A stretch of 64,000 nucleotides of DNA from assembly GCA_017499595.2 (NCBI GenBank), contig CM038999.1, positions 186,001 through 250,000 of the forward strand. Reading direction: 5' to 3'. Source of the DNA: Psilocybe cubensis. Taxonomy: Eukaryota. The translations under genes and the position numbers were made by a program. Position 1 is the stretch's first letter. Each line of letters begins with the position of its first letter. Below the pieces are notes generated by a model that was given only the letters and a program-made list of their open reading frames with translations, had not been told where the DNA came from and searched no databases. Shown here piece after piece: positions 5,986-52,300 of this stretch.

Positions 5986-5993
5986 AAAAAAAG

Positions 5994-8788: not shown

Positions 8789-11566
8789 ATGCCAAAGCAA
8801 ACCATTACCGACCTGAAAGAATTCAGAAACGCCATTGAGACGCTTGACAAAAAGGTCCGGAGAGGGCTCGAGAATGGCAATGTGACGGAGGTTATGAACC
8901 TAAATTGGGATTTGGTAGTACGTTCGAATTTTATCTGATACACACACTCACTAATATCACACCAAGTTGGCCGTAGCCACATCCACGGCCACAGAATGTG
9001 TTGCAGAAAAAGAGAAAAAGTCAAATATATTTCTGTTCCAATTCTTGATGGCCTATGGAGAAGCGCGTCAACAAGATCAACATTACAGCCCCGAATTTCT
9101 AGAAAAGATGCACAACCTTTTGAAAAATGAGGGTTCCAGTGGCACACCTGAACCTCAAGACAGGCGCTCTGAACATCCCAATAACAGCAGTAAATTGAGT
9201 AACCGCATGCAGAATGCAACTCGCCAACATGCCCGACCCTCGCCAAAAAAGTGTTGTGGTACTGGAAAGATTGGTTCGGCTTCAGCACGTCCAGTAAAAC
9301 CAGAGTCCGACCCGGAGGATGACTCTGATGCATCAAATGCTGCTCGACCTCCCAAGAGACGTCGCATCGGCTCAACTCGTGCGAGTGCTATTAAGACTTT
9401 TGCTGAACTTGAGGCATCAGAAGATGACACTGGCAATGACGACACATTCATACCTTCTCGGTATCCTTCTGAGCCTAAAAGCCCTGAGGAAACTCCCAAA
9501 CCAAAGACAGTACGATCTACATCCAAACGAAATAAATCTTCGGCTAGGCAGTCGAAGGAGAAGTCGGTCGGACCTGGACACGATGAGCGCATGCCAGTGA
9601 AGGCTACGAAATGGATTCATGTACGCCCATGTCATATGTGTGCCGAACATAATCAAAAATGTAGATTAACATACGAGACCGCAACTTGCTTCTATTGCAA
9701 CAAACATCGTCGAGGTTGTCGAGGAAAGGGAGAGGAAATTGAATGATGTTCTGAAGTTGATGAAAATGAGTCAATTACAAGCGAGTTAGAAGACGATCGT
9801 AACCCAAAAATTACTCCCCGAGGCGCATTGAACCTAATCAAAGTTGGAGCATCAACGCCATTCAACAGTCGAGCTAGATCCGTTGCAGGTCATCACACCG
9901 AACTCCCTGTGAATCTACCCACTGCAGAGTCAGCCATTAATCCTACGATGGCTGATGCAAAGGAGTCAGACACGGTTAATGTCTCCAATGAAACCACATC
10001 ACCTCAAGAAACCTCATCAACTCCATCCGCAAAAGCTAAAGGAAAGCAAGTAGAGCGTCTTGGTAAGTTGTTTGCTATACGTATAAAAGCAAAGCCAACT
10101 TACATTAGTGACTTTTACTAGTCAAGACATGGGACAACTGGTTCCATGAAGATGCCGCCCAAAGTAGTTCCACTCAGCCACCACCACCTTTGCCTCCTCG
10201 CCCTTCGTATATTCGTGATTGGGACTTGGAGGATGATACAAAAGGCCAAGACACCAATACCACCTTATCCACCGAAGATCGGCTCACAAGGCTAGAAAAG
10301 AAATGTGACCAAATCATTCAAAAAATGAAGAGAATAGACGACCAGCTCACCAGTTATGATCACGGTTTTGACTACATCACGGGGAAGTTGACCTTCTTTG
10401 TTTCATTGGTGGAATTGATCGACTCAAAAGTGGATACATTAAATCACTTTAATGCAGAAGTCATTGAAAGAATGACCGTAATGAGGCGAGAAGTCAATGT
10501 CGTTCTGCGCGATATGTACGAGCATAGCTCGTCAGAGGCCGAGGGGCATACACATTATGATGCACCACAAACGTACCAAAGTGGAAATGCGACACAGAAC
10601 AACGGCAATGCTAATGCGTCGACTTTGGCATCAATGACAGATTCAACGGACGTAGGTCGTGAATATGTGCCTGTACATTCACACAGCAAGTTAGCTGCTT
10701 TGGCCAAAACATGGTCTGGGGGGACATCAGACAAACCAATTGACCTTGAAGAGCACGAAACTCCATCTTTGGCCAGTGGCGACTGTGCTAAGGATGCCGA
10801 GAATAACGCCGATCAAGCCAAGCTCGCCAAACCCGCACTCCAAACCAAAATGCGGACTTCTGTGAATGCCACTGCCAGTTTGCCTAGTCGTAAGAAACTT
10901 GCCAAAGAAACAAACCATGCTCACCGGAGCTCGAACATCCGTGTTGAGTCCCCCAACCCTAACAGTAATGCCGAAAAAGACCAGAACACCAAGCAGAACA
11001 CCAAGGATGACAATGTCCAACACGTGTCCTTGACAACTCGCCTGGATGATGCCCGATTGTCAGGTCATGTCAAGCTCGCCAAAGAGGCCGAAGTTGTCGA
11101 ACAGGCACTCTCGCCAAATAGTGTCAACACTGCCTACTCGTCAGTTCACGCCAACCACGCTGATGATGAACATATGAATACTCAACCCGACTCAGCAAAT
11201 AACTCGCATCAGCAAAAAAAAATATTGCAGGACCAAGGTGCTGAGATAGCCAAAGATATGGTGTCCAACAAGGATGCAAGGGGTGAAGACAAGGCCATTG
11301 CGGTTGAACAAGATGACCAATCCTCACCCCGTGTCTCCATACCCCACAATTCCCACGAACGTGAAAATTGCCTCACTCTTGTTCCTTATCATCGTCTTAC
11401 CGCTGTACCCCCTTCACCAGTTATCCCACCCCAATCTTTCTCAAATTTGGCTAATCCGCTACAAGTATTATCATCCCCCTTCCCCCCCATGCAGATAGGA
11501 CCGGATGGCAATTTACTTACGCCTCCAGGATCACAAGATGACCAAGATGATATGGTTGAATATTAA
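8789..11566 (+). pseudogene. KDZ-1 accessory gene: Zn2Cys6-like cluster plus coiled coil, multi-exon, premature stop
   Basis: CHMCAEHNQKC...CFYCNKHRRGC at ~9630-9720. TGA at 9744-9746 with the same frame continuing into ORF 9828. Heptad segment RLTRLEKKCDQIIQKMKRIDDQL. GT-AG introns near 8918-8966 and ~10063-10121. Confidence 0.7.
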
Positions 11567-11660
11567 GTACTTTACTACTGCCTATTCTACGTATACTAAG
11601 TGATCCAATCTATTCATTCTGTCTTCTCCTCTGAACCATACATGTGTGCCGTGTATCAAA

Positions 11661-14444
11661 TTATTCTCGAACTCGTTTCTTGGACACTCGCTTACCCGCC
11701 ACTTTGAGCCTCTCAGCCTCGTGTTTAGCTAACTCGTCAGAGGTGACTACTTTCTTTGCGACTCTATCATTCTGAGTGCTCCCAGATCCGTCTTGAAGGT
11801 TTGCTTTCCGCTTTGAAGACCCTTTGTTGACCACGTTAATTGGCGGGTTCTGCTTGCTGTTCAACTCATGCAAATGTCCAGCTGAAGTTTCAGAAAACGT
11901 GGCGTTGGATTTAGGTTGAGTTTGGGCTTTGGATGGGGTCATCGGCATTGCTGTGAGTACCCGGTTCAATATCTGAGCAGGGGATGCATGAACATTCTTT
12001 TTCTTTGCAGTATGTGCCGGCGTGATGGAATTGCTCGATTCGCCTTCAGCAATTGCTGTTATTGTGGTGCGTCCAACACTTTCTGTACCTGTTGGTACAG
12101 GCGTAGCAGGCATATTGACATGGCACCATACTAGGGGTTGTTGCGAAGGCGCACGATAGACCTCGGCGGCTTTGTCAGATGCATGATTCGAATTATTACC
12201 ATTGTTGGTATCAAAATTGGTTATTGCCATGTGAGCCCATTCATCATTTGCCGTAGAGGGAAGTTCTGAATGTGTTCCAACATGCATCTTGGCAGCATCA
12301 TTGGAAATAGGGTTTAAATTGTCGTTAGCGCCACTCCTTGCCATAGAAGGATATTCTGAAGAATCCTCCATATTGGGTCTGGCAAGACCAGCTGAATCGT
12401 TGAAATTGGACAAAGGGTAATCGCCCATCAGCATTTCGGTGAAAGAAAGCTGCTGCGTCGAATGACTACTGGTGCCATGTGTTCCAGAGCTCAAGGCCGA
12501 CAAAGGTGTGTCCATATTTTCCAGTGGTGGAAAGCTAAATGCGCCTATATCACATAGATATTGAAACATATTTTCATCCTGAATCTGTAACGGATCAATT
12601 GGTTGCCTATCAAGGCGACTAGATCCTTCGGCGTTTTGCTCGCCGTGCTCACCATGCATATTAAGGCGACTAGATCCTTCGGCGTTTTGCTCGCCGTGCT
12701 TGCCACGTATATTAAGGCAACTAGAAACCTCGGTGTTTTGCTCTTCACAACCATCAAGGTGAATATGTGGCTCGGTGTTATGCTTGCCATGGCCGTCAAG
12801 TTGAGTAGGTATCAAGACACGACTTGATGATGCCTCGTCATTGTTTTGACCACATTGATCATGATTGTTATGCCCAAGAGGTACATGGGTATTGATTTGC
12901 GTCATAGTCATCTCCTCGGTGCTTAGTGCATTGCTCGATGACACTTGCTGTTGCTTAGGTTTCTTTGTGGGCCTTTTTCTTTGTCGCTTGGCAGGTTCAG
13001 CAAGGACCTCATCGGATACACTTTCAATGTCATCGGGATAGCGGGATGGGATTATAGAGCCATTGATACGGGCCGTGGTGATACTGTGGAATCGAAACAC
13101 ATCAGCAGGTGCAAAGGTTTGTTCGCGTTCATATATGTGGTCAAAAAATGCTTTAATATCATCAATGCCGGTGTTGTGTGGGTCCTTGAATACAAATCCT
13201 GTAGGTAGATAGTTGTTATGGATGAATTTGGATTGATTTTTTATGATGTCGCCATAGGGTACTTGTTCTGTTCTGTTTCGTGTCGCTAATTCTAATCCAA
13301 ATGTAAGTAACAGTTAAAAATTCAAGTCTAATTACGCACTATAATGTCTTGATAGATACTCGCGATACAGTTTAGAAGCTTCAGTCTTGCTGAGCTTGTC
13401 TTTATTCCAAGTGGCTCCAATTATTGGAAAGCCGTCATCGCTTGTTCCCAAACTATTCTCTTGTGCCATTGTGATTTCTCTGCCTCGGGAAGTTTCGATG
13501 ACATTGCGAACATACTCAATCATGAGATGTTGTACTTCGCGGGCCTGTCTGGGGTAAGTCTCTTCGAAAGACTTTATCTTTCCAGACTTCGGAACACCCA
13601 CTAGCTCCACAATATCATTGTGTCTGAACATTAAAGTACCACCTGTAATTGAGTATATTTCTGCATAAAATCAAGGGCTTCATTAACTGACATTTCAGCC
13701 ACAACTCTACCAGTAGAGTCCTCAAAAGCCGCAAATGTGACAGATAGCATTCCCAACTCTAGCCAATGACCTTTCGCACTTGCTTTCAAACGGGTCTCAG
13801 AATGCTTTTCTGCCAGTCTATTGTGATAAATACGTGAGTTTTGATTAAGAAGATTATGAATTGTACTGACTGTTGACGGATTTCCTGAGGGTATCCTTCT
13901 TCCGACATTTTCTCTGCTCTTCCTTCTAATTCTTTCAACTCTGTTGGCGTCATTCTCTTGATGACATTACTGACTGCCAGATTACGAACAGAAAACCTCT
14001 TTTGGACATTGTTGACATCGGCAGGATCCAGTAAAACATCAATCTCAGCCTCAACAACATCCTTCATAGTACGCGCAACAACATCTGACTTTTGTACTTG
14101 GAGAATCTTAGTGGATTTGGGAACTCTTTTCTGAGACGATAGCCTCCAGCAATTTTGAGCCCACTTTAGTAAGTCCTTATTATATACTATCAGTATACAG
14201 TACAATATGTTTCGTATCATGACAAAAGGCGTACCGTTCTGGCTTTGTCTGGATCATATTTGATCCTATTATTGTCCCAGTATACTTTAAGGGCGGGAAA
14301 CATTTTGGTGTTCACAATAGTAGACCGGTCATTAGGTGTAGAGGACGTGATGTACTGTTCCTTGTATACATCTATTAATGCCCGTTCTTCTCTATTATAT
14401 GCCCGAACATTTCTGTCCGACACATTCATGGGAAGTTGCGACAT
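11661..14444 (-). CDS. KDZ-1 conserved accessory protein (helical, possibly divergent HMG-like; disordered basic tail)
   Basis: Exons in ORFs 14217-14444, 13786-14220, 13332-13631 and 11661-13100. Colinear similarity with 47275-49499: WLELGMLSVTF/WLRMGMRSITF, DGFPII/NGFPLV, TSDELAKHEA/TSDDLALQEA. Confidence 0.75.
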
Positions 14445-14636
14445 GATGGTAGCGGTTCAAAGTTACTTTAACCGCCACAGAACAAAATTTTGCAAGGTTT
14501 CTATGAAAGGAAGTTGAGCGGGTCAAGTATATGCAGGATAATTTAAATGTCGGGTTATCTGACTCAGTAGAATGTTGTCTTTTGCGATCACTTGTTGCGC
14601 TCTTTTTGACATCTAAACCATCAGTAGCATCATATT

Positions 14637-17600
14637 ATGGGCAGAAAGTCTAAAAGATCTCGGCTCGTTGAAGGAGACCTAGATGCAGCACAATATGTGA
14701 CTGTACAGAAGGTCCGCAAAGTAGACCAGGACGGAAATATTAATGTCGAGCGAATTGTCCAGCCTGTTCAGAATTGTAGAGCTGAGTACAAGCGCAAACA
14801 AACTGGAGCTAGAGATCACGACGAATGGGAATACCATGATAATGGTGTGGATGACAGCAAGACTGTAACAGAAACTCCACATAAAAAGGTTAGTATCACC
14901 ATTTCATGAGAAATGTGTTACGTGTATGCTAATATGGGGGTATAGACGCAAAAGGATTATATATTACAATTTGTACAGCGTGTAGATGAATTTTTGGGAG
15001 CATTGCTATCGAGGGAAGCTCTTCCACAGGATGAACAATTCTGTCAATCCTGCCAAATGGAATCCATTGCCGTGTGGAGGTGTAAAGACTGTAGTCTGGG
15101 ATGCACCATGTATTGGAAATGCATGCGACATGCACACATCAAGGAACCCTTTCATCGAATTGAGTTCTGGAATGGGAAAAGCTTTCGGACAGCGGAACTG
15201 TGGGAAGTCGGAGTTGCGGTAATTGTGCCTCATTACACTGGTATTAGAATGTGCAACAATCTACAGCTGCAACAGAGGTATTTGGAAGAAAATGAGCGGG
15301 TCAAGGACGATGCTGAACAGCATTCACTCCGGCAAGGAATGCCGAGGGGCAATACCACAGATGCCGACATCTCTCAAGATTGCGAGGTAAACAGCGAGCA
15401 GCACAAACCAAGGCAGCATTATGCAAGAGAAGAGGAAATCAGTCAGGAGGCTTTACAGGATCAACGGTTCTTTACATACCTAGACTCTCTGAGGAGCAAT
15501 CCAAATGCGGAACCCATAGAAGAACCTGACGACAATGCCAAGGTGGGCGATGAAGATGGCGATGAAGATGGCGAACTTGATGCACAAGGCGATGCCATTC
15601 CGACCTGGCTTAATCATCGAACTGCACAAGAAAACCGTGTACGTGTCCTACATACCAATGGAATACACCAAATATCCTTGGTGACGTGTTCGTGTAATGG
15701 AATAAATAACATTCCTTGTGACCTTATTGCTTGCCGCCTGTGGCCTACAAGTTTTATAAGAATTAGAACATTGTTTTCGGCACATCTCCTGGATAACTTT
15801 CGCCTTGCCAACCTTGAGCTGCATGCATCGGCGTACCAATTTTATCACCTCCTTCGTCGAGTGACCAGTCCAATGAATCCAGCTGGAGTAGTTGATTTGT
15901 ACAATGAATTTTGTCGTATGACACGGCTGTGGCGATGGACAAAGAAGCTTAAATGGGCAGGGTATGCTGGGCATAATGGGAAAAAGGTTTCTGAGGTTGA
16001 GAATGGCGAGCTCGCCAACTACTGCCCTGCATGTCCGCAACCTGGGGTAAACTTACCGAACAACTGGGAAGACGATCCAAATAGATTTGTTTATCGCCGT
16101 GTTCTTATGGCCGACAGAAACTTCAAGGCAGATCACGTACAACCAAAGAAGCCTTCTCAGGATGTATGGCTGTCTGAAGGAAGTGGAATGATACCCAAAC
16201 GCGAGGAGTATCACACATTTTTGAAGAACACTATTAAAAAGTTAACAGTATGTACTGCACATCCTAAGTAGCATTGAAAGTACTGAACAATTATTGTATG
16301 CAAGGAGCACCGTGTGAGAACACCTTCCGAGCAATAACAGGTGCCCTGCAGGCGTCGAAGTCCTGTGATGTAACAGGCGTAGTGGCCGTTGCATGCGCTC
16401 GGCATGGGTGTTACGCCCCAAATTCGCTGGTTGATTTGTTTAAAGGGGAGCAGCAGAAAAATGTGGATTTTGCTTTGCTTTTGGCATTGAAATCGACTGG
16501 AGTGCATCCTAAGCAGGGGTTAACATTTCTATATGATGTTATTTGCCAATTCTTTGTGTACGTTAAGCAAAGAATTGGGCACTTACTTCCTGAAGGACTT
16601 GACCTGGACCGTGCTATTGGGCTCTTTCATGTACATGCTCACAAAGACGAATGTCTTTTTCGTTTTTCGCCTTCTTTCATTCCCGGAGCCGCAAGAGTAA
16701 TTGGAGAAATCCTTGAATCCTTGTGGGAGAGAATGAATGGGATATCTCCAACTGCAAGAACGGCCACATTAGCACACCGAGCAGAAATGCTAGATGACCA
16801 CGCAACCGATTCCAATCACAAAAAGGCTCTCAACATGCCAAAAGACCTTTGCCGACGTTATGTCAAGGCTATAGAAAATCATGATGCTACCGAGAAGTAT
16901 TTCGCCGAAGTGTCACAGGTAGTCTCTTCAGACCTTATTAATCTTTGGACGCAACAAATTACACAGGCAGAGGCCCAACGACTAACCAAGCCTCAAGTGA
17001 TGGACATTTATGCCGCAAAGGGGCGAGGACAGGACAGTGACAGTCAAAATGTGGATTCTGATGTGGCAGGTTCCGAAGATCCGATAGAGGCATATATGCT
17101 GTTTGCTTTGGTTGTTGAAGAAAAGGAGTATGTATTTGATATCTATATGATGATGATCACAAAGCTAACATTGGATACAGAATTGAGATTCGCCTATCTG
17201 TTCGCCAATTGACAAGATCACCTCGGCATGCTGATCCTCACAAGATCCAAATGCTCCGAGAGAAATTGAAGCTACTCATAGGAGAGCTTGAGCGTCTTCA
17301 GGATGTTGCAGGCATCGTAGAAGAAAACTCAACTCGGCAGGAAAGTATTGTGGAAGTTCTGGATTGGGCGGATGAGTGCTCGCCTGAAGAGGTGGTAGAA
17401 GATATGCAATCAACACTTACCTCCCCATCCATAGAGCTTATCGAAGATCATAAAATATGTCTTCCATCCCACGGAAATGCGAGTCAAAGGCTTGTTCCCT
17501 ATGAACTGAAGGCACAAATTGCTCAAGCAAAATCACATCTCCATAAAATTCGCAACCTAATTGCCGAAAAATCATTTCAATACTCGGATGTCATTCGTAA

Positions 17601-18312
17601 AGCACCTAGAAAGGGAGTCAGAACTCGTTCACGAGCAAAAGTGGATGAAATGAACCACAGAATAACCTACTACAGCCAGTTGTATACAGAATGTCGGGCT
17701 CGTTTGGTTGTACTTGGTGCTGATGATTCTACTCTTCGCAAGTTCCAGGTACTGAAAAAGGAGGACATAAAAACAAGCACAGCAATACTGGATCCCAACA
17801 CACCTGGCTCTACGAGAGTCCAACTATCGTGGATTTGGCATTCCGCCAATCAGCAACGTCTTGGTCCCAACATTGTTGCCGAAGGGGGTGAATTTCGCCT
17901 CGCCAACTCTGAAGGCTCCAACATAAATCTGGATGAGACAGATCCGGAAACACTTACAGAGTGTAAGTAGTTGTCAAAATCAATATGATAAACTTAACTT
18001 ACGGTATTGTGTTGTTGACCAGTCAAGCGGGTCCACTGGCTACGTGCCAGGGCACAGTTTCAAAGGTGGAGTGAAGAGGCCACAATCCTAGACTACGAAA
18101 TGTTGTGGACCGTGAACTACTTTGTTCATAAAGCCGAGTGGTGGAGGTGCAGTGCTGAAGTTCATAGAAATGGCAAGGTTTTAGATGGCGATACAGTACA
18201 GAAAGGGCGAGTAGCATATGCCGAACGCCAAGCATCCCTTTGGGACAACCTCGCCCGCCGAGCAGATTATCTTTTCCGGATGACTAATTCAAGTTATAAA
18301 AAGCAGTTCTAA
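14637..18312 (+). CDS. CxC2-KDZ transposase (element 1), multi-exon
   Basis: CQSC..WRCKDC..HIKEPFHRIEFWNG, LHTNGIH..CSC, CPACPQPGVNLP, AD(R)NFKADH, CARHGCY, KGEQQKNVD, YDVICQ, AIGLFHVHAHKDEC, GEILESLW, DDHATDSN, and C-terminal RVHWLRARA. The DDE candidates are present, but the conserved DGNF reads DRNF. Confidence 0.92.
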
Positions 18313-18373
18313 ATATAGGATGCCGAGGACGTGGGGTAAAATTTGCAAATCCGTGGGGTTTACATTTACTACC

Positions 18374-19028: not shown

Positions 19029-19041
19029 TGGTCTTGTCAAA

Positions 19042-40534: not shown

Positions 40535-40548
40535 ATTTTAAATTGATC

Positions 40549-42330: not shown

Positions 42331-42406
42331 GGTGGTCTTGTGGCAATATTGATCAGTTAGTTGGAGAAATATATAGATTACAAGTCTAGTGAATAGAACA
42401 GATGAC

Positions 42407-45400: not shown

Positions 45401-46393
45401 CATCATTATCTTCTGCCCTTGGACGGGGTTGATCGTGGAAGCTTGTATCAAGTTCCTCATACAAGTTGATATCCTCATCGTCTCCATCGTCCAGTTCAAA
45501 CAGAGTTGGGATTTCAGGATCTGCAAGAAGCTGAGATGTGAAAGACTCTTCGTCATTGTTTGCTGGTGTTGGACCAATGTCATGAGTATCCGTAACTTCG
45601 GCGGCATCACGAGTCCCGTTCCTGCTATATTCATCGGCGGCAAGTGATGTGCCGCTCCAATAGTTGTTTTCGGCGGCAGATTGAATCCCGTTTCCAACAT
45701 ATCCTTCGGCTCCAATGCTTGTCCCGTGGGTACTCTCGTTTAAGGGCAATTGTACTGGACACCTCTTCCCATTATGACCAAGATACAACCTAATACCCAC
45801 TTCCCATAAACCTCCAGGACGAAAGTACTCCCCTGTCCATTTCTCGACTCGGTGAAACGGAACCAGTTGATGGTTTTGTCTCAGACAGTGAGGGCAAACA
45901 AGTTGAGATCCAAAACATTCAAGGCATCTCCAACATCCCGGGAGTCTTTGGCATTGCTGGCATTGATTATCCCGACGCGGAGGAGGCGCCTCCCGACCAA
46001 TGAGTGTCCCGAGGTATATTTCTCTCTTTGGAAGCCACTCTCTAAGGTAGTCATTTTGAGACTAAGATAATAATTTGTGAGCAAGAACACCTCAATCCAT
46101 TGACACGGATATACCTTTCCTCCCGTCCTAACATCCTGTAACTCTCTCAAGTTGTCAATTACCTGCTGGTCTGTCAGATCTCCCGGATAGTGAGGTATGT
46201 CTGATTCATCTATATTGTGTTCAAAGTGTTGTAACATGTTTTGGGCAGGTAGAGGAATAGAAGTGGAAGAATGGCTTGTATCAGGTCTATATTTCCTTGG
46301 CCTTCCTCTTTTCCTTGAAGCCCCAGAAGACCAGCTTGCCTCCTTAGGGCCGTCGCTATCTGATCCATTATCTGGCACAGTATGAAAGCCCAT
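42407..46393 (-). CDS. CxC2-KDZ transposase (element 2), multi-exon; 5' end uncertain
   Basis: CQQC..WRCLEC..CPHC..PFHRVEKWTG, IHTSGVH..CTC, FCPACPQPGVNLP, VADGNFKADH, CARHGCF, YDINCQY, AIGLFHVHGHKSEC, DGEILEPLW, DDHMGDSNWKK, FRLNWLRARA. Confidence 0.93.
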
Positions 46394-47274
46394 GGAAGTG
46401 GGAAGCAAAGTGTCTGAGCACCTGTGAATTTCATTCTAAATACAGTATTCCATTGATAGCTCTTCACAATGTGCATTAAATTTATTTTAGTCTACATAAC
46501 CTTTTCGAGGGAGGAAATAGCTTTCATATGATCTATCTTGCAAGGAATTTGGAGAACTGTAGCCAGTTTTATGAACAAGTTTCATTTTGGATGTGCAGAA
46601 AATGGTCGTGATCCCAACAGAAATGCATAATGTGATCTACAATGACCTCTCAAAACCACTCTCCTGAAGTATTTTGGCCATAACTCTTCATGCACATGCT
46701 CCCTACTCCTCCGGCATATATCATATGAAAGGTATTTTAAATGTCTATCCAATGATAGTGTTTAGCAAATTTAAATCCATGTATGTGAGAAGATATATGC
46801 AATTTACTGAAATGTTGCCCAATTTGAACTTGCTGGGATTCCAATTTCTTTGCACAAGAAACACAGTTTAGAGTACTTTACACAGACTCTTAGATATTCA
46901 CCGTTTCAATTTTTTTAAGATTGGAGGTGGAAAGTCATTTGCTTACTTTTACATTTTTAAACATTTCCATGTGAGATATAACAGTCTTATATACAGAAAT
47001 TCAATTAATACATATACAATTTACTGCTCTCAAAATTGTGAGAGGATAGAGAAAGAACTGGGTGAGCTATAGTGAATATACTTTGTGATTGTGTGTGATG
47101 ATGACAAGAGATGTTTGCTCGCTGTCCCCGACGTTTGGGCGGGATTGCCAGATTAAGTAGTTTCCCATGTCTTAAAATAGTAATCAAGATCAAAATCTTA
47201 TTTTATCTCCGGTTGGTGGTAGATTATTCAGTCATTCGTTGATAAGCTAATATGATGCCCATCCCTTTGTACAA

Positions 47275-49499
47275 ATGCCTCCTCAACCTCCTCCCTCAAA
47301 CACCTCTGACAATTCAGGTCGCAGACCTTCTGTCCCTCCGCCCGGCGGCACTGTCGGGCCCGATATTCCTCCCGACGAGGAACAACTGTGGACAGCTAGG
47401 GAGATGAGAATTCTGAGAGGCAACGTTCAAAACTACAAAGACGCACCGAGATTATCTAAATCAGACTTTATTCGGAATACTATTGTGCCGTTAATCAAAG
47501 CCACATGGGATCACAAGTATTCGGAGGTTGCGATGAGAGCCGATAAAGCCTTGTTCAATGAATGGAAAGCTAAGAAAGATGTAAGTCATGTCTTTATTAT
47601 GAAATAGAGGCTAACATAAAATGCTAGAGACTCTTTAATTGGTTTGCAAACCATGCCTCAACCCCTCGAAATACCAAATTGGATGGTATGCATGGACGAG
47701 CAACCTTTCAAAGTGTTTTTCGGGAGAAAAAGGCAGCCGAAATTGAAGAAGAAGTGCAGCTTTTATCGGGAAATGCAAGACGGGGTAGCCCGCAATGGAT
47801 CAAGTTTTATCAGCAGGCAAGAAAACGAGTTGAATCTAGACTTACCATTGCGGAGAGAGAGGAATATGCTCGAATATTAGAGGAGTGGAAAAAGAAGGGT
47901 TTCTCCAAGACTTTGAAAGCAAAGTACGTTCGGCGGCATTACTCGGCTCCGATGCTTACCCATCCATAGGACTGCGAAACGACAAGGAAAGAAGATTCTT
48001 CACCAAATGGATCGAATCAAGTGGCTGAGGATGGGAATGAGATCTATTACATTTGAAGGCCATTACGATCTTGATGGAAAAATTGAATACTCAATGTGAG
48101 TTATTTTGTTATTTGAACACTTCTGTTTTTCGGGATGTATGTGGCTCCCGATGACCTTCGGGATTACATTGTGCCGGTCATGAGGACGGGACAACCTGTT
48201 GTCCCAATCATTAACAACTTGATGCTAACTCATTAACAGGACACAAACACACGATCTAGGGTTGGATGACCCTCGCATTCCTTCATTTGGACAACTATTT
48301 CCAGATGAATTAAAGTCGTTCAGAAGGGCGTTTGTGAAATATCTTGTCAAGGTTTCAGAGATTGAAAACGGAGTATCAACTCCCGCCGTCCCTGCAGGCA
48401 CTTTTCTTGAAAAGGATTTGAAGTTCAATAGCAATGGATTTCCATTGGTTCCGTCACCTATATACAACTCAAAGGGGAGGGAGACTAATGCAATACAAAA
48501 AACAATCATTAGAATCTATATGAACCGAGTGTATGGTGAGTAATGTATTGAATTAATTCAACATATGGCTGAAATGTTATAGCCTTGGCAAAAGATAGGA
48601 GTGGATCTCGAATCCCATGGGACTCCGTGGAGAAACATTTTGGAGAGATGATTGATCCCGAATATTGGCCAAGTTCCATTCCGTTCACGGATCCGAGCAG
48701 ACTCCGCGTTGATGACACTGCTGCTCTTCTGAGACATTGGAGACAGCGTCAGTCTCGTGGACTGATTCCTTTCAAGTTTGAAAGAGTATTGGCACGTGAT
48801 AATGAAGAACTGTTGGAACCATGTTACGCTTCAAACTTGTTTGAAGGTCTCCAAACAGTGCCTATAACCCCAGCACCAAGGCGCTTGACTACCTCAAGGA
48901 GAGTTTGTAGGAGACCTTGTCAAACATCTTTGAGTTTTTCAGAGCAATCTAATCCCTCTGATACTCATGATGGACACCCTCAACAAGATTCTATCAGTGT
49001 TGACAGCCCTGGTGTTGGAACTGCAAGTCGTGCACGGGATGATACTCAGGCCGATAACACTCGGAATGACATTCGGGCCGAACAGCCACGGGATAACACA
49101 CAAGCCAATAATCCTCGGGATGCAGCACGAGCCGATGAACATCGGGAAGACACTCAAGCTGATCCTCCTCGGGATGTTACTCGTGCCGAACAACGTCGGG
49201 ATGATAGTCAAGAACTCACAATCCCAACTAATGGAAGCCCCACAGTAGTAAACTCTTCCTTAAGACCTACTCCTGAACTTCAACAGCCAGGTACTAGCAA
49301 AGCTATACGCAAAGTTCAACCTCGGCCTAGGAAGAAAAATCAAAAATTAATTGGCAGTTCGGAGGCAAATGACCCCGTTCCACCACCGGCGGCAAGAGCC
49401 TCCCGACGCAAGCAAACTTCTGACGACTTAGCACTCCAGGAAGCAAATAACTTAGGCTTGACTGCAAAAAAAAGAAGAAAAGCTAGAGCCAAGAAATAA
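47275..49499 (+). CDS. KDZ-2 conserved accessory protein, divergent from the transposase (possible HMG-like segment)
   Basis: Multi-exon; FYQQARKRVESRLTIAEREEYARILEEWKK resembles HMG-box helix 3; RIPW..IDPEYWP..FTDPS..LLRHW..RQ; homolog of 11661-14444. Confidence 0.75.
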
Positions 49500-49812
49500 C
49501 AGGTTGTTTAGTTAGTTTAATGCAACATAACATTGCTTTTATAGAACTCAAACTTCTTTATTTTTCACTCAAAGCTCATTGTTCATCCAACATATGGAGC
49601 AAAAGAAAAATATCTTTATATACAGGACATTAAACATTATAAAGACATATAGGGCAAATATACTATGTGAGGCAGAATAGAAAATGAAGTGATTGGTCAA
49701 GCAAAAAAACACCAAGTAGGAATGCCCAAGAGACAAGAAGAAAAGACCAATGAAATATAGCACAGGAAAAGAAAGTAGGTAACATACATAAAAAAACACA
49801 CCCAACCTGTGA

Positions 49813-52300
49813 TTACTTTTTGGAGGCCCTTCCTCTGGGTTTTTTGGGGGAAGGTAGCGTCTCTGGCTCCTCAGCTGCTTTGCGCTTTCCGCTTCTTCCA
49901 GCACGAGTCCTCGTCGCCGCATTGAACACCTTGGGGTCCACCTTTTCCTTCCCTTTTTGCTTTGCCTTCCCTTTCACCTTCTCAGCGGGTGCCTCGTCAT
50001 CGCTTGGCTCAGGGGATGACAGATCAGAGGATCTATGATCCTCATTGATCTTGTCCATCTCGACATCTTTCGGCAGGTGGTCTGGCGCTGGGGGCATGGG
50101 TGACGGCGGCTCTTCATGGCCCGGACTCGGCGGCAAGTTGGATCCCGCGGTTGATCCAACTTCGCGATTTTGACGCGGTGGTGACATGGGGCCCGGTGGT
50201 GATGGAGGTGCCGACGATCCAACTTCACGATTTTGAAGTGGTGGCGATATGGGCTCAGGAGGCGGCAGGGGTGGAGACGACGGCGAATTTGAAGATGCCA
50301 GAGAAGAAAATCGAGGAGGAGCCGGGGAAGCAGGAGGTGGGGAAGCAGGAGGCGGAGAGGGAGGGGCTGGGGAGGGAGGGGCTGGGGAAGCAGGAGGCGG
50401 GGAGGGAGGGGCCGGGGAAGGAGAAGGAGGCCGGGGAGTAGGTGATGCTGAGTGTGAGGGTTAAGCAGACTTGTAGCTGGCAGAGTGGACAGACTTACCA
50501 TGTTTGCCCTCTAGCCTCATTTCACCTAACTTCGACTCCATACTCTTCATCACCTTCTCCATTGACTCCATTTGAGCTTTCTGCCTCTCAGAAAGCTGAG
50601 TCAAACTTGTGACTCTGGCATGGAGCGAGGTAAGGCTGCTATGGAGAGCAGCATTCTCCTCACCCACCTCACCCAGCTTGGCGTAGAGTTGCACCAGCAA
50701 CTCCCCAACATCCTTTGGAACTGGAAGTTCCCCCTTCTTCCCTTGTCCGGGAAGATCAGATCCCGCCGTCTTCTCGGCACGCAAAATCTCCGTGTACTCC
50801 ACAATTGGAGTCGTCAAAGTCATCCCAGGCGGCTTAACGGATCGTCCCGGGAACAAGTCGCACTTGGTCTTGTTGCGACGGCACAAGACACAAGCCCGAG
50901 AGTACTGAGGGATCAAAGTCGATCCCTCAGTGGCAAACCCAACGATGGTTTGCCCCCTTTCCATCTTGCATCTCCTCTTCCTTGCTTGGCAGGCCTTGCA
51001 GGAAGGAGTGACGGTGACGAGGTTTTTCTTCTGGTCTTCAGCCTCTGAGCGACGGCGTGCCTTCTTGAGGGGAGCCTCGTTGTCCTCTCCTCCTTCCTCC
51101 TCGCTATCCTCACCCTCACCCTCACCCTCACCTTCATCTTCACTTCGGTCCGTATCCGTCCCGATGGTGGACTTCGACTTGGAAGCAGGCTTTTTCCTGC
51201 TGCTGCTGGCCTTCGGCGGAGCAGACGTCTCCGGCTTTGCAGGTGTCTTTCGGGCTGATTTTCGGACCCGCGGCTCGCTTTCACTCCCGGAGGAGATGAC
51301 TGTTGGAGGCGGGGCTTTGCCTTTGCCCTTGTCGACCTTTGAAGGGCGCATAGTGTCGGCTCCGGAGCCTTCCGCACTGGAATCTACGGTCGGCTTGGAT
51401 TTTTTCTCCGTCCTGCTTCGTTTTTTTGGGTGGGTCTTCATCTCCTCCCTCTCCCTCTCCCTCTCCCTCTCCCTCTCCTCCCTCTCCCTCTGCCTCTCCC
51501 TCTTCTCCTTCTCCTCCCTCTCCCTCTCCCTCTCCTCCCTCTCCCTCTGCCTCTTCTCCCTCTCCTCCCTCTCCCTCTCCCTCTCCCTCTCCCTCTCCCT
51601 CTCCCTCTTCTCCTTCTCCTCCCTCTCCCTCTGCCGCTTTTCCTTCTCCTCCCTCTCCCTTTGCCGCTTTTCCTTCTCCTCCTTCTCCCTCTGCCGCTTC
51701 TCTTTTTCCTCCTTTGCTCTCTGCTGCCTTTCCCTCTCCTTCTCCTCCCTCTCCCTCTCCCTCTCCCTCTCCCGCTTTGCCTCCCTCTCTTTCTCCTCCC
51801 TCTCCTTCTTCTCTTTTTCCTCCTTCTCCTGCCTCCTCTTTTCCTTCTCGCGCTCTCTTTCCTGTTCCTTCTCCTCCATCTCATTGGCCTTGGTTTTACT
51901 TTTTCCCTCTTTTTCCTTTCGCTTTTTGCTCTCTCTGGCGTATTTATCGAAGTTCTCCATTTGTTTGCGGAGCTCCGCAAAGTCGACGACAAATTCGCGT
52001 ACAGTTCGACCTTGGTTGTCAGAACCGTCGCGGCACGCCTTGTTGATGATGGGGCCGATGTAGTCGAAAAGCCGATAGGCTTTGGGATTGCGGGTGTGGA
52101 GGGGGAACACCTTGGCCTATTGAGGTGTAACAATGTAAGTTATGTTTTTCTGTGATGTGGAGTCTGTTACTTACCAGTTCTGTCCACAGCACCTCGATTC
52201 TTGACCCAAAAATCTTCTCGCCGGCGTCGATGGAGGAACGAGCCATGTTCTCCCAGTGTTCAACATCGGTCTTGAGGGATGCGGAGGAGGTGGAAGCCAT
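49813..52300 (-). CDS. KDZ-2 accessory gene: E/R/K charged helix, Zn2Cys6-like cluster, coiled coil, Pro-rich tail
   Basis: [11 protein letters not shown]...[11 protein letters not shown], followed by heptads [26 protein letters not shown]; exons in ORFs 52019, 50461 and 49813. Confidence 0.75.
51440..51880 (-). repeat. (GAGAGG/GAGAAG)n coding microsatellite encoding an ER/K-rich helix
   Basis: Almost pure pyrimidine on the + strand; translates as [12 protein letters not shown] repeats. Confidence 0.9.

What the first reader, a model, noticed from the sequence alone, without database searches (positions are those of the whole stretch)
8789..52300. Two diverged giant KDZ transposons share a fixed four-gene architecture with swappable terminal cargo
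Seen: in transposase orientation both read Zn2Cys6/coiled-coil gene -> <- helical (HMG-like) gene | transposase -> downstream gene ->, although I see no DNA similarity between them. The accessory proteins keep motifs such as TSD[ED]LA..EA plus a basic tail. The last slot holds a repeat-motif protein in KDZ-1 and TET/JBP in KDZ-2. Known: KDZ transposases are linked to TET/JBP and chromatin-type genes in basidiomycetes. Inference: the accessory genes are a conserved functional module (end binding, targeting or anti-silencing), not random cargo.
Basis: partly seen in the sequence, partly recalled or inferred. Interest (0 to 1): 0.72.

Follow-up and report, generated by a model that had tools for sequence, protein, structure and literature searches.

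The report
Kyakuja transposons share four core genes
Two large mushroom DNA transposons, each with exact ends, carry the same set of genes around their transposase, and dozens of related elements from environmental DNA keep that gene set and order, so the unexplained extra genes of these giant transposons look like part of their own machinery, not passengers.

Summary
Both elements are real and I could delimit them exactly. KDZ-1 is 8183-20883, inserted in a Ty3/gypsy element. KDZ-2 is 38821-54592, inserted in an NLR gene. Each has a 7-bp target duplication and 5'-CA..TG-3' ends, which is the Kyakuja type.

The order A (six-Cys zinc cluster plus coiled coil) -> <- B | transposase T -> is shared, with no DNA similarity between the elements.

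I surveyed 80 metagenome contigs that carry related transposases.
- B lies upstream of T on the opposite strand in 53 of 54 informative loci (36 of 37 non-redundant families).
- A lies beyond B in 21 of 24 loci, 19 of them in the same orientation as here.
- A fourth gene, D, follows T in 30 of 32 loci.

In named Agaricales genomes, B and T carry consecutive locus tags in 5 cases.

- KDZ-1's "repeat-motif" gene follows the conserved D domain, probably as one gene, so it is not cargo.
- KDZ-2 has an unrelated gene in the D slot.
- TET/JBP is a fifth gene that converges on T, as it does in two other TET-bearing loci.

No function was tested. End binding or assembly of the transposition complex is my inference. 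I found no description of A, B or D in the texts I could read. Iyer 2014 and the supplements could not be read.

The parts
8176..8182 (.). KDZ-1 target-site duplication, left copy (GATTCGT)
   Evidence: Read directly from the sequence. The intact gypsy copy at 1165-6268 has one copy of the site.
8183..20883 (+). KDZ-1, a complete Kyakuja-type element of 12,701 bp. Ends are 5'-CACAT...CCCTG-3', with an imperfect terminal inverted repeat of about 55 bp.
   Evidence: It splits a Ty3/gypsy element whose halves align to a second copy: 6588-8181 and 20884-25091 against 1168-6200.
8197..8564 (.). KDZ-1 left subterminal cluster of the heptamer ACAGTGT (5 copies)
   Evidence: 8 of the 17 matches in the window lie in the two end regions of KDZ-1. 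The window-wide chance expectation is 9.35.
8789..11566 (+). Gene A1 (annotated as JR316_0001585). It has a six-Cys cluster at 9630-9719, an in-frame TGA at 9744-9746, an intron near 10064-10117, then a coiled coil and a disordered tail.
   Evidence: It matches the A-family cluster profile at E 1.3e-5. The public gene model splices out the cluster together with the stop codon.
11661..14444 (-). Gene B1 (JR316_0001586, 851 aa), transcribed divergently from T1
   Evidence: AlphaFold2 gives residues about 13-400 at high confidence and a disordered tail.
14637..18309 (+). Transposase T1 (CxC2 plus KDZ), about 1,165 aa, with introns
   Evidence: Pfam. Full-length collinear match to paralogues P0152 and P0153.
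18615..20453 (+). Gene D1. The conserved N-terminal D domain is at 18615-19025. The C-terminal ORF 19473-20453 carries EDKLAxLY repeats. The start of the gene and the joins between its pieces are not resolved.
   Evidence: The D profile gives E 6.6e-30 for KDZ-1. The later ORFs are in other frames and do not match the long D profile.
20755..20869 (.). KDZ-1 right subterminal ACAGTGT copies (3)
20884..20890 (.). KDZ-1 target-site duplication, right copy (GATTCGT)
38814..38820 (.). KDZ-2 target-site duplication (GGTGCAC), copy on the low-coordinate side
   Evidence: The paralogous NLR gene has a single copy of the site at about 28933-28940.
38821..54592 (-). KDZ-2, a complete Kyakuja-type element of 15,772 bp. 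Ends are 5'-CACATAGG...CCTATGTG-3'.
   Evidence: It splits an NLR gene: the ankyrin part ends at 38820 and the P-loop part resumes at 54593, as shown by alignment to the paralogue at 27785-29787.
38821..39075 (.). KDZ-2 terminal inverted repeat, arm 1
   Evidence: Arms of 256 nt are 99% complementary. blastn gives 263 nt at 98.5%.
39243..40534 (+). TET/JBP dioxygenase gene, convergent with T2. The oxygenase-domain ORF is 39980-40534 and contains HRD. The upstream exons are provisional.
   Evidence: Pfam PF12851, E 3.7e-17, 62.5 bits against a cut-off of 34.9. The upstream ORFs and the domain ORF match L057 and L074 in the same relative position and strand.
40552..41724 (-). D2, an ORF in the slot after T2. 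No similarity to the D family was detected.
   Evidence: BLASTP against D1 shows nothing. tblastn against 80 loci gives nothing. The D profiles give nothing. hhalign probability is 0.4%.
42440..46393 (-). Transposase T2 (CxC2 plus KDZ). The start codon is provisional.
   Evidence: Pfam. Collinear match to residues 89-1161 of P0152.
47275..49499 (+). Gene B2, divergent from T2. The start and the exon joins are provisional.
   Evidence: BLASTP against B1 gives E 1e-7. 25 of 151 B-family proteins hit 47640-48965; P0058 hits in three collinear pieces at E 2.9e-26. The C-terminal motif is seen.
50464..52300 (-). Gene A2. The six-Cys cluster lies at about 50861-51001 and is followed by a coiled coil. 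A possible further exon is 49816-50460.
   Evidence: It matches the A-family cluster profile at E 3.8e-6 with filters off.
52400..54337 (.). About 1.9 kb of unexplained sequence inside KDZ-2, between A2 and the end. It holds ORFs on the + strand (52972-53256, 53453-53926, 53969-54184).
   Evidence: No Pfam hit and no match in the 80 loci.
54338..54592 (.). KDZ-2 terminal inverted repeat, arm 2
54593..54599 (.). KDZ-2 target-site duplication (GGTGCAC), copy on the high-coordinate side

Best explanation
Both features are complete Kyakuja-type KDZ cut-and-paste DNA transposons in a genome whose proteins match Psilocybe cubensis.

This transposon lineage has a conserved multi-gene core, and TET/JBP is not its only addition to a transposase. 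In transposase orientation the core reads as follows:
- A is a protein with an invariant six-cysteine C-x2-C-x6-C-x(n)-C-x2-C-x6-C cluster followed by a coiled coil.
- B is transcribed divergently from T. It is a folded protein of about 400 aa from an unnamed family, with a disordered tail that in several lineages ends in an SD.LA..EA motif plus a basic stretch.
- T is the CxC2-KDZ transposase.
- D is a gene after T with a conserved N-terminal domain and, in the long forms, acidic tandem repeats.
- TET/JBP is an optional fifth gene at the far end, pointing back towards T, in the sub-lineage that includes KDZ-2.

Shown here: exact ends with 7-bp target duplications; conservation of gene order across many diverged elements; homology of A and B between the two elements; co-divergence of B with T.

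Inferred, not shown:
- T does the cutting and joining.
- A acts as a Gal4-like DNA-binding dimer.
- B acts as a second DNA- or chromatin-binding factor.
- A and B recognise the element's own subterminal sequence and help to assemble or regulate the transposition complex, much as accessory proteins do in En/Spm and PIF/Harbinger elements.
- D and TET act on chromatin or DNA methylation to keep the element expressed.

KDZ-2 looks recently inserted, because its end repeats are about 99% alike. KDZ-1 may be decaying, because A1 carries an in-frame stop.
For: Ends:
- The empty sites are visible in paralogous copies. Target duplications are GATTCGT and GGTGCAC, and the ends are CA..TG.
- These features match Kojima 2025 on Kyakuja (PMC12730594, section 3.2.1 read).
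- A metagenome element, L020, has 256-bp end repeats, the 7-bp duplication GATGCTA and CA..TG ends around all four genes.

Transposases: Pfam CxC2 plus KDZ in both.

Gene B:
- A profile search finds 440 cluster representatives at E<=1e-3 and 135 at E<=1e-10.
- Names were looked up for 30 of them, and all 29 that carry a name are from Agaricales.
- B and T have consecutive locus tags in 5 cases: P. cubensis 6497/6496, 4117/4116 and 6505/6506; Amanita muscaria 14240/14239; P. cyanescens 3703/3702.
- They are two tags apart in 2 cases, and share a 13-kb contig (inferred from equal contig length) in 1 case.

Survey of 80 metagenome loci (the best 80 of 324 confirmed):
- B is found in 53 loci, always on the opposite strand and upstream of T.
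- That is 53 of 54 loci with at least 500 bp upstream, and 0 of 26 with less.
- The six-Cys cluster lies beyond B in 21 of 24 loci with at least 2 kb of room, on the expected strand in 19.
- The D domain follows T in 30 of 32 loci.
- After collapsing to 56 families: B 36 of 37, A 17 of 20, D 27 of 28, and all four genes together in 14.
- T-core and B-core identity matrices correlate at r 0.71, with 0 of 2000 permutations as high, over 14 lineages.

Gene A:
- The six cysteines are invariant in 19 of 19 aligned sequences.
- A profile trained on metagenome sequences alone hits A1 and A2.
- In the Foldseek list for the A2 model, 10 of the 23 rows shown are Zn2Cys6 DNA-binding domains (Pho7, Lac9, Gal4, Put3, Leu3, Hap1), but every E is 1 or more.
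- The predicted A2 homodimer is an in-register parallel coiled coil. Score 0.41, best of 3 controls 0.00. The mark was reached by 21 of 30 proteins solved as pairs of one chain and by 0 of 23 solved as single chains. On eukaryotes it was reached by 17 of 29, but by only 1 of 7 without an older solved relative. The runs agree in at least 49% of contacts and the partner pLDDT is at least 62. Gal4-type coiled-coil dimers are solved structures, so this pass may be from memory.

Selection: dN/dS is 0.05-0.49 for B (4 pairs), 0.33 for A (1 pair) and 0.34 and 0.42 for D (2 pairs), against 0.13-0.63 for T (17 pairs).

Subterminal repeats: 8 of the 17 ACAGTGT copies in the window lie in KDZ-1's two end regions.
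Against: - No function was tested, and there is no RNA evidence that any of these genes is expressed or how they are spliced.
- Pfam Zn_clus is not reached by any A protein: A2 scores 15.3 bits against a cut-off of 21, A1 gives nothing, and 0 of 5 metagenome A ORFs hit.
- All fold matches are weak for both A and B. Foldseek E is 0.027 or more, and VIA Z is 7.1 or less, a range the tool itself calls common.
- KDZ-2 lacks a detectable D gene, and so does L074, so D is not universal.
- A is inverted in one family (L012/L021) and was not found in L029, L047 and L053.
- A1 has an in-frame stop just after the cluster, and the public gene model removes the cluster as an intron.
- The dN/dS pairs are few, and most diverge by about 1% or less, so the ratios are noisy.
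- The survey covers only relatives that share two transposase peptide patterns, and only the best 80 loci.
- The Mantel test used 17 of the 82 sequences (80 loci plus the two window elements), the ones that passed a coverage filter.
- 21 of the 30 B proteins looked up had no transposase neighbour in my incomplete transposase list. This says nothing either way.
- Kojima describes the Kyakuja families as having no terminal inverted repeats, whereas these elements have them.
Confidence: 0.75

Rival explanations
1. A, B and D are conserved element genes, but they do not act in the transposition reaction. They would serve expression and anti-silencing: transcription factors for the divergent B-T promoter and chromatin or methylation antagonists, comparable to the sequence-specific anti-silencing protein of plant VANDAL elements. 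TET/JBP would be a later addition to the same task.
For: - Zn2Cys6-type proteins and HMG- or GTF2I-like folds are typical of transcription and chromatin factors (fold leads).
- B and T share a short divergent intergenic region. The gap between the B and T matches is mostly 70-700 bp.
- One sub-lineage added TET/JBP. Kojima 2025 interprets this gene as an escape from methylation silencing (abstract and introduction read).
- The acidic tandem repeats of D resemble activation-type sequence. This is direct reading and inference only.
Against: - Nothing here separates this reading from a cofactor role.
- The subterminal repeats at both ends of KDZ-1 fit end binding better than promoter binding. They could be the transposase's own sites.
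Confidence: 0.2
2. The accessory genes are passenger cargo or captured host genes with no role for the element. Huang et al. raised this possibility for the extra ORFs of Cryptococcus KDZ elements by analogy with Starship cargo.
For: - Huang et al. 2024 (bioRxiv 10.1101/2024.08.15.608186, passages read) note extra ORFs without predicted domains and raise the cargo analogy.
- KDZ-2 does hold element-specific sequence that fits this description: D2 and the 1.9 kb at 52400-54337 have no match in the 80 loci.
Against: - Order and orientation are kept across transposases that have diverged to about 33-60% identity.
- B co-diverges with T.
- Long open frames are kept in many lineages.
- dN/dS is below 1.
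- B-family hits in the window occur only inside the two elements.
Confidence: 0.03
3. The shared layout in this window reflects two decayed, non-autonomous relics, so the conservation seen elsewhere says little about these two copies.
For: - A1 has an in-frame TGA.
- D1 is split over three reading frames, and its later parts do not match the D profile.
- T1 did not appear among annotated proteins of 773 aa or more.
- KDZ-1's end repeats are imperfect.
Against: - T1 and T2 align over their full length to intact paralogues, and the frame changes lie at positions consistent with short introns.
- KDZ-2's end repeats are 98.5-99% identical.
- B1, A2, B2 and TET have long open frames.
Confidence: 0.15

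Closest known systems
[quoted passage not shown]
   Same: - 7-bp target duplications and 5'-CA..TG-3' ends.
- A KDZ transposase.
- A TET/JBP gene inside some elements.
- Hosts in the Agaricomycetes (section 3.2.1 read).
   Different: - That paper says these families have no terminal inverted repeats. KDZ-2 has 255-bp repeats and KDZ-1 has about 55 bp of imperfect repeats. Metagenome elements have repeats of 66-383 bp.
- The parts of the main text I read or searched say nothing about other element genes. Its supplements were not open to me.
Cryptococcus KDZ1, KDZ2 and KDZ3 (placed in the Dileera clade by their authors)
   Same: - Large elements of about 9-11 kb.
- Long terminal inverted repeats of 139-241 bp.
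- A KDZ transposase with a CxC domain.
- Extra ORFs of unknown function.
- Mobility shown by experiment (passages read).
   Different: - 8-bp (or 4-8 bp) duplications.
- CxC1 where these elements have CxC2.
- I could not test whether their extra genes are related to A, B or D, because I had no sequences for them.
Multi-protein DNA transposons with a DNA-binding accessory protein: En/Spm (TnpA with TnpD) and PIF/Harbinger (Myb-like protein). Recalled knowledge, not from a call.
   Same: A transposase plus a separately encoded DNA-binding protein, with repeated subterminal motifs. This is the working model I propose for A and B.
   Different: The proteins are unrelated. No binding or requirement has been shown for A or B.
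Fungal Zn2Cys6 (Gal4-type) DNA-binding domains
   Same: - The six-cysteine spacing.
- A coiled coil downstream that is predicted to pair in parallel.
- The Foldseek list is led by Pho7, Lac9 and Gal4.
   Different: - Below the Pfam threshold.
- The gap between the half-clusters reaches 24 residues in A2.
- Encoded by a transposon.
- No middle homology region or activation domain was recognised.
GTF2I repeat and HMG box (fold level only)
   Same: - Residues about 267-405 of B1 give the two top VIA rows, both GTF2I domains (Z 7.1 and 6.7).
- Residues about 86-165 match seven HMG-box entries (Z 4.7-5.6).
- One B protein has a weak Pfam GTF2I hit at E 0.013.
   Different: Every score is in the range that the tool describes as common. 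No Pfam family reaches its threshold in any of the 5 full-length B proteins scanned.

Membership tests
KDZ transposase superfamily | KDZ catalytic domain (PF18758) with an N-terminal CxC cysteine cluster | tested here: met
   T1: CxC2 63.1 bits and KDZ 128.9 bits. T2: CxC2 73.3 bits and KDZ 132.5 bits. All are above the cut-offs.
Kyakuja clade (as described by Kojima 2025) | 7-bp target-site duplication | tested here: met
   GATTCGT and GGTGCAC flank the two elements, and paralogous empty sites hold a single copy. L020 has GATGCTA.
Kyakuja clade (as described by Kojima 2025) | 5'-CA..TG-3' termini | tested here: met
   CACAT...CCCTG for KDZ-1 and CACATAGG...CCTATGTG for KDZ-2. L020 and L040 also begin CACAT and, on the other end, CAGGT.
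Kyakuja clade (as described by Kojima 2025) | Absence of terminal inverted repeats (a descriptive feature of the two Laccaria families) | tested here: not met
   256-nt arms at 99% in KDZ-2. About 55 bp of imperfect repeat in KDZ-1. Arms of 66-383 bp in L010, L020, L040, L057 and L063.
Kyakuja clade (as described by Kojima 2025) | Placement of the transposase inside the Kyakuja branch of a KDZ tree | not tested
   I had no named Kyakuja, Dileera or Zisupton reference sequences, so I built no tree.
TET/JBP dioxygenase | 2OG-Fe(II) oxygenase domain PF12851 with the HxD iron-binding motif | tested here: met
   ORF 39980-40534 scores 62.5 bits against a cut-off of 34.9. HRD is seen in the translation.
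Fungal Zn2Cys6 binuclear cluster | C-x2-C-x6-C-x5-12-C-x2-C-x6-8-C spacing | tested here: met
   A1 has a gap of 8. A2 has a gap of 24, which is outside the usual 5-12. The six cysteines are invariant in 19 of 19 aligned A sequences.
Fungal Zn2Cys6 binuclear cluster | Match to Pfam PF00172 above its threshold | tested here: not met
   A2 scores 15.3 bits against 21, and over only 14 profile positions. A1 gives nothing. 0 of 5 metagenome A ORFs hit.
Fungal Zn2Cys6 binuclear cluster | Fold of the cluster domain | tested here: inconclusive
   10 of the 23 Foldseek rows shown are Zn2Cys6 domains, but all have E of 1 or more. The cluster region of the model has pLDDT 76-95.
Fungal Zn2Cys6 binuclear cluster | Dimerisation through a coiled coil after the cluster (Gal4, Put3 and Ppr1 type) | tested here: inconclusive
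   The prediction supports an in-register parallel dimer. Score 0.41, best control 0.00. 21 of 30 solved pairs and 0 of 23 solved single chains reached the mark. The pass may be from memory of solved Gal4-type dimers. It is a prediction, not a measurement.
HMG box | L-shaped three-helix DNA-binding fold or a Pfam HMG match | tested here: inconclusive
   Seven HMG entries at Z 4.7-5.6 on B1 residues about 86-165. No Pfam HMG hit in 5 full-length B proteins.
GTF2I-like repeat | GTF2I domain fold or a match to Pfam PF02946 | tested here: inconclusive
   The top two VIA rows have Z 7.1 and 6.7. Foldseek probabilities are 0.38-0.89 with E of 0.2 or more. Pfam gives E 0.013 and 16.3 bits against a cut-off of 27 in 1 of 5 full-length B proteins scanned.
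Accessory-protein-dependent DNA transposons (En/Spm and Harbinger type of working) | The accessory protein binds the element ends and is needed for transposition | not testable with these tools
   Only indirect evidence is available: the conserved gene set, subterminal repeats and co-divergence of B with T.

The most novel reading that the evidence does not exclude
Kyakuja transposons are obligate four-gene elements. On this reading:
- The Gal4-like dimer A and the multi-domain protein B are element-specific end-recognition and assembly factors. They co-evolve with their own subterminal repeats and with the transposase.
- D, and TET where present, keep the element free of silencing.

This would make Kyakuja the most gene-rich cut-and-paste core known in fungi. 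It would also make these elements a possible evolutionary source or sink for fungal Zn2Cys6-type and GTF2I/HMG-like regulators.
Probability: 0.3. Interest if true: 0.78.

Novelty: new variant of a known kind. Interest (0 to 1): 0.62.

Why it matters
KDZ elements are among the largest cut-and-paste transposons in fungi, and they are mobile in Cryptococcus, where they cause drug resistance (passages read). Their extra ORFs have been left as "unknown" or likened to cargo.

Three unnamed protein families travel with the Kyakuja transposase in a fixed order across many diverged elements. This turns an open question into testable ones:
- Which of the four proteins are needed for excision and integration?
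- What do A and B bind?
- How does TET fit in?

The result also gives annotators three signature genes and exact end features for recognising complete Kyakuja elements. It shows too that these elements insert into immune-type NLR genes and into other transposons.

Tried and rejected
- **Whole genome:** none is held for this window, so I could make no genome-wide census of copies.
- **RNA evidence:** no RNA holder was listed by the look-up of sequencing runs. Gene models therefore rest on homology and on reading the frames.
- **Papers not held:** Iyer et al. 2014 (PNAS) and Chavez et al. 2014. Supplements are closed. If those texts, or Kojima's Table S1, Data S1 or Repbase entries, already list these ORFs, the novelty claim falls.
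- **Paper searches for prior description:** 'Kyakuja/Dileera/Zisupton' found 21 papers, of which 14 were listed. 'KDZ + transposon + HMG + TET' found 1 unrelated paper.
- **Metagenome search seeded with B:** two alignments had no stretch conserved enough. I seeded with the transposase, which also avoids bias towards B.
- **Direct BLASTP** of A1 against A2 and of D1 against D2: nothing significant.
- **Homologue search with A1's coiled-coil ORF:** it returned only the protein itself, because low-complexity words swamped the candidate list.
- **Pfam** on B, A, D, D2 and the ORFs near KDZ-2's end: no family above threshold.
- **D profile against KDZ-2:** nothing, whether with frames read through stops as X, with the long profile or with hhalign.
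- **Foldseek** on the B and A models: no match at E<=0.001.
- **Target duplications** around the L010 and L040 ends: none found when I read the flanks printed.
- **Earlier findings of this scan:** nothing by place, words or sequence.
- **Considered and dropped:** an 8-bp duplication for KDZ-2. The 7-bp reading gives CA..TG ends on both sides and fits the empty site.

Full report
**What is in the window**

The window is fungal. One encoded protein is 99% identical, with 100% query cover, to a protein named from Psilocybe cubensis, JR316_0001586. Its neighbour is 100% identical to JR316_0001585. No whole genome is held for the window.

Two sets of ORFs carry the Pfam CxC2 and KDZ transposase domains:
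- T1 on the + strand, 14946-17970 and beyond.
- T2 on the - strand, 46061-42701 and beyond.

A TET/JBP oxygenase ORF lies at 39980-40534 on the + strand, opposite to T2.

**Exact ends**

Self-comparison of the window shows that each element interrupts something that has an uninterrupted paralogue nearby.

*KDZ-1* splits a Ty3/gypsy element.
- The gypsy LTRs are 6588-6860 and 24886-25158, 97% alike.
- Its two halves align to an intact copy at 1165-6268, and the join falls at 8182/20884.
- The flanks show one copy of GATTCGT on each side, against a single related 7-mer in the intact copy. The element ends are 5'-CACAT...CCCTG-3'.
- KDZ-1 is therefore 8183-20883, 12,701 bp.
- Its ends carry an imperfect inverted repeat of about 55 bp.

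*KDZ-2* splits an NLR gene made of an NPHP3_N-type P-loop domain and ankyrin repeats.
- The paralogue at 27785-29787 aligns to 37666-38821 and then to 54593-55439.
- The flanks give GGTGCAC on each side and ends of 5'-CACATAGG...CCTATGTG-3'.
- KDZ-2 is therefore 38821-54592, 15,772 bp.
- It has terminal inverted repeats of about 255 bp that are 98.5-99% alike.

Seven-base duplications and CA..TG ends are what Kojima 2025 reports for Kyakuja (PMC12730594, section 3.2.1). That paper also says Kyakuja has no terminal inverted repeats, which does not hold here. I did not place the transposases on a tree, so 'Kyakuja-type' rests on the end features alone.

**The shared layout**

With the transposase pointing right, both elements read A -> <- B | T ->.
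- blastn finds no DNA similarity between the two elements.
- tblastx aligns only the transposase collinearly, at about 29-60% per segment.

*Gene B*
- B1 is the annotated 851-aa protein. Its exons map to 14444-11664.
- The long ORFs of B1 and B2 match at E 1e-7 over 125 residues.
- A profile of B1 and one paralogue finds 440 cluster representatives at E<=1e-3, 135 at E<=1e-10 and 20 at E<=1e-30. The conserved part is the first 430 or so residues.
- Of the 151 proteins returned, 150 hit B1 and 25 hit the B2 region 47640-48965. One of them, P0058, hits in three collinear pieces at E 2.9e-26. None hits anywhere else in the window.
- B2 is therefore a true but distant member of the family.
- No Pfam family covers B.

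*Gene A*
- Direct BLASTP of A1 against A2 shows nothing.
- Both carry a six-cysteine cluster with Zn2Cys6 spacing, followed by a coiled coil.
- A profile of the cluster region, trained only on 18 metagenome sequences, scores A1 at E 1.3e-5 among 8,528 ORFs. The next hit outside the A genes is at E 0.015.
- The same profile scores A2 at E 3.8e-6 with filters off and the same database size.

**Is the layout conserved elsewhere?**

*Named genomes.* I looked up source names for 30 B-family representatives and compared them with 64 transposase hits.
- B and T have consecutive locus tags in five cases: P. cubensis 0006497/0006496, 0004117/0004116 and 0006505/0006506; Amanita muscaria 014240/014239; Psilocybe cyanescens 003703/003702.
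- They are two tags apart in two cases: Panaeolus cyanescens 007601/007599 and P. cubensis 0009097/0009099.
- In Pholiota conissans both proteins are listed with a 13,027-bp contig, presumably the same one.
- In Galerina both are listed with a 388-kb scaffold, which is weak evidence.
- For the other 21 B proteins my transposase list held no neighbour. The list is incomplete: it has only proteins of 773 aa or more, found through a word index. This says nothing either way.

*Metagenome survey.* I scanned metagenome contigs with a transposase alignment, so the sample is not biased towards B. Of 598 pattern matches, 324 were confirmed and the best 80 were kept, each oriented with T on the + strand.

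| Gene | Position relative to T | Loci | Non-redundant families |
|---|---|---|---|
| B | upstream, opposite strand | 53 of 54 with at least 500 bp upstream | 36 of 37 |
| A (six-Cys cluster) | beyond B | 21 of 24 with at least 2 kb of room; 19 on the expected strand | 17 of 20 (16 on the expected strand) |
| D | 260-400 bp after T, same strand | 30 of 32 with a complete T end and at least 1 kb downstream | 27 of 28 |
| All four on one contig | | 14 | 14 |

- **B.** tblastn with the 151 B proteins finds B in 53 of the 80 loci, always on the - strand and always upstream of T. It is present in 43 of 43 loci with at least 1,500 bp upstream and in 0 of 26 with less than 500 bp. The one miss is L022.
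- **A.** The six-Cys pattern, searched in all six frames, gives 25 hits in total. Two are the window's own A1 and A2. Nineteen are on the + strand, 1.4-3.1 kb beyond B. Two are on the - strand in one family (L012/L021). Two are elsewhere, in L029 and L042. Among the 24 loci with room, L029, L047 and L053 have no cluster.
- **D.** The ORF just after T1 (18615-19025) seeds a profile that finds a same-strand ORF after T in 37 loci. Among the 32 informative loci the misses are L041 and L074.
- **Redundancy.** Near-identical contigs were collapsed at 85% identity over at least 800 bp, which gives 56 families.
- **End-bounded elements.** In six long loci, inverted repeats flank the gene set (L010, L020, L030, L040, L057, L063). 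Five of them have measured arms of 66-383 bp. In L030 the right arm is cut by the contig end. In L020 the 7-bp duplication GATGCTA and CA..TG ends enclose all four genes.

**Co-inheritance and selection**
- Identity matrices for a T core segment and a B core segment were compared over 14 non-redundant lineages. These came from the 17 sequences, out of 82, that passed a coverage filter. The matrices correlate at r 0.71, and 0 of 2000 permutations reach that value. B evolves much faster than T, with mean identity of 32% against 67%.
- Nei-Gojobori dN/dS between close copies is 0.05-0.49 for B (4 pairs), 0.33 for A (1 pair), 0.34 and 0.42 for D (2 pairs) and 0.13-0.63 for T (17 pairs).
- Most accessory-gene pairs differ by about 1% or less, so these ratios are rough.
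- The long uninterrupted A, B and D frames in many lineages point the same way.

- **KDZ-1's last gene.** It is not cargo. Its first part is the conserved D domain (E 6.6e-30). The repeat ORF at 19473-20453 follows in another frame and probably belongs to the same gene. Its EDKLAxLY repeats resemble the acidic 'ASVAAxLW'-type tandem repeats at the end of long D proteins. That resemblance is my reading only; the long D profile does not match KDZ-1's later ORFs.
- **KDZ-2's D slot.** KDZ-2 has no detectable D. The ORF after T2 (41724-40552) matches nothing in the loci, no D profile and gives an hhalign probability of 0.4%.
- **TET.** It is a fifth gene that points back towards T2. The only two loci with TET, L057 and L074, have it in the same place and orientation. 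Their transposases are closer to T2, mostly about 40-60% per segment. L057 still has a D domain; L074 does not.
- **Extra sequence.** KDZ-2 also holds 1.9 kb of unexplained sequence between A2 and its end.

**What the proteins look like**

*B1* folds with high confidence over residues about 13-400 (322 residues at pLDDT 90 or more). The rest is disordered apart from short helices, one of them over the C-terminal motif.
- Foldseek finds nothing at E<=0.001. Its list is led by NRF1 bound to DNA and by GTF2I domains.
- The wide structural search puts two GTF2I domains first (Z 7.1 and 6.7, residues about 267-405). It lists seven HMG boxes at Z 4.7-5.6 on residues about 86-165.
- All these values lie in the range the tool warns is common. 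'HMG-like' and 'GTF2I-like' are leads only.
- The protein atlas finds only unnamed basidiomycete clusters.

*The C-terminal motif of B.* The motif [ST]D.LA..EA followed by a basic stretch ends both window B proteins. It also ends B in L012/L021, L014, L019/L020 and L040. All eight ORF-end matches are at B's 3' end and none is elsewhere. Among the 151 database representatives only three real cases appear, and many of those gene models are fragments.

*A*
- The six cysteines are invariant in 19 of 19 aligned sequences.
- The A2 model has a compact cluster region (pLDDT 76-95) and a long helix.
- Ten of the 23 Foldseek rows shown are Zn2Cys6 DNA-binding domains, all at E of 1 or more.
- Pfam Zn_clus is not reached.
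- A homodimer prediction supports an in-register parallel coiled coil. The score is 0.41 against a best control of 0.00. The mark was reached by 21 of 30 proteins solved as pairs of one chain and by 0 of 23 solved as single chains. On eukaryotes it was reached by 17 of 29, but by only 1 of 7 without an older solved relative. The runs agree in at least 49% of contacts, and the partner pLDDT is at least 62.
- Gal4-type dimers are solved structures, so the pass may reflect likeness and not binding by this copy.

**Ends and repeats**
- The heptamer ACAGTGT occurs 17 times in the window, against 9.35 expected. Eight of those copies lie in KDZ-1's two end regions, 8197-8564 and 20755-20869.
- The same motif sits about 10-20 bp inside the ends of L010, L020 and L040. 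One end of these elements begins CACAT and the other CAGGT or CAGGG.
- KDZ-2's repeat carries several short palindromes.
- These are the kind of sites an element-encoded DNA-binding protein would use. Which protein binds them is unknown.

**How it most likely works**

Shown: these are bounded transposons with a conserved gene set, and B is inherited together with T.

Inferred:
- T performs DDE-type cut-and-paste with a 7-bp stagger.
- A acts as a Gal4-like DNA-binding dimer.
- B acts as a second DNA- or chromatin-binding factor.
- A and B act on the element's own ends or on the divergent B-T promoter.
- D and TET counter silencing.

The main rival keeps the conserved module but assigns it wholly to expression and anti-silencing. 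My data cannot separate the two. Pure cargo is contradicted for A, B and D, though it remains possible for D2 and for the 1.9-kb stretch in KDZ-2.

KDZ-1 may be decaying. A1 has an in-frame TGA at 9744-9746, directly after the cluster, and the public gene model removes the cluster and the stop as an intron of about 150 nt. In every other element the cluster lies inside a long open frame, so I read the cluster as coding.

**Relation to what is known**
- KDZ transposons, their link to TET/JBP and the Kyakuja end features are known (Kojima 2025: abstract and sections 1, 2, 3.1.1, 3.2 and 4.1 and the figure legends read).
- A search of that paper's main text for 'other protein', 'zinc', 'HMG', 'accessory' and 'unknown function' found nothing relevant.
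- For Cryptococcus KDZ elements, Huang et al. 2024 note extra ORFs without predicted domains and compare them with Starship cargo (passages read). A 2025 preprint shows their mobility (passages read).
- I could not read Iyer et al. 2014 or Chavez et al. 2014, nor any supplements.
- Within what I could read, a conserved A-B-T-D core for Kyakuja has not been described. I rate it a new variant of a known kind, with that caveat.

**Limits**
- There is no RNA evidence, so exon joins other than B1's, and the starts of B2, T2, D1 and TET, are provisional.
- The survey covers relatives that share two transposase peptide patterns and only the 80 best loci.
- Metagenome contigs can be chimeric.
- No experiment was done.

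Noticed in passing
window 36228-38820 and 54593-56610 (- strand); paralogue at 25584-33012: KDZ-2 sits inside an NLR-type gene (NPHP3_N P-loop domain, winged helix, many ankyrin repeats). Its tandem paralogue about 10 kb away is uninterrupted. The insertion separates the ankyrin part from the P-loop part.
   Followed up: partly
window 1165-6268 and 6588-25158: There are two copies of one Ty3/gypsy family, about 80% alike. The first has 278-bp LTRs that are 99.3% identical. The second has LTRs 97.4% identical and hosts KDZ-1 inside its integrase region. It also has a perfect 60-bp tandem duplication at 7972-8091 and about 700 bp at 21036-21750 with no counterpart in the first copy.
   Followed up: partly
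window 9618-9770: The public gene model for A1 (JR316_0001585) removes the six-Cys cluster and an in-frame TGA (9744-9746) as an intron of about 150 nt that begins GTAAGA. In all other elements the cluster lies in a long open frame. The model may therefore be hiding a nonsense mutation.
   Followed up: partly
window 51418-51889 and 50300-50464: Inside A2 there are long imperfect tandem repeats with periods of 9, 12 and 15 nt. They encode Glu/Arg/Lys-rich and Pro/Ser-rich low-complexity sequence. This stretch raises local GC to 57%.
   Followed up: no
window 59252-62182 (- strand): A large ORF encodes TPR repeats and a C-terminal CHAT protease-like domain. This is another immune-type architecture next to the NLR genes.
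   Followed up: no
L012:2590-4509 and L021:358-2274: In one metagenome family the A gene keeps its place beyond B but is inverted. It reads in the same direction as B.
   Followed up: no
L010, L020, L040 and window 8183-8210, 20855-20883: The extreme ends are asymmetric across families. One end begins CACAT and the other (reverse complement) begins CAGGT or CAGGG. A shared TACACTGT-type motif follows 10-20 bp inside. This may be why some Kyakuja families were described as lacking inverted repeats.
   Followed up: partly
window 14637-18309: T1 aligns over its full length to paralogues, but no annotated protein of 773 aa or more with its sequence appeared in the homologue search. The best hit was 69% identical. 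T1 may be unannotated or split in the public annotation.
   Followed up: no
L046:6263-7042: A second ORF in this locus matches the A cluster profile at E 1.4e-10, in addition to the main A ORF.
   Followed up: no
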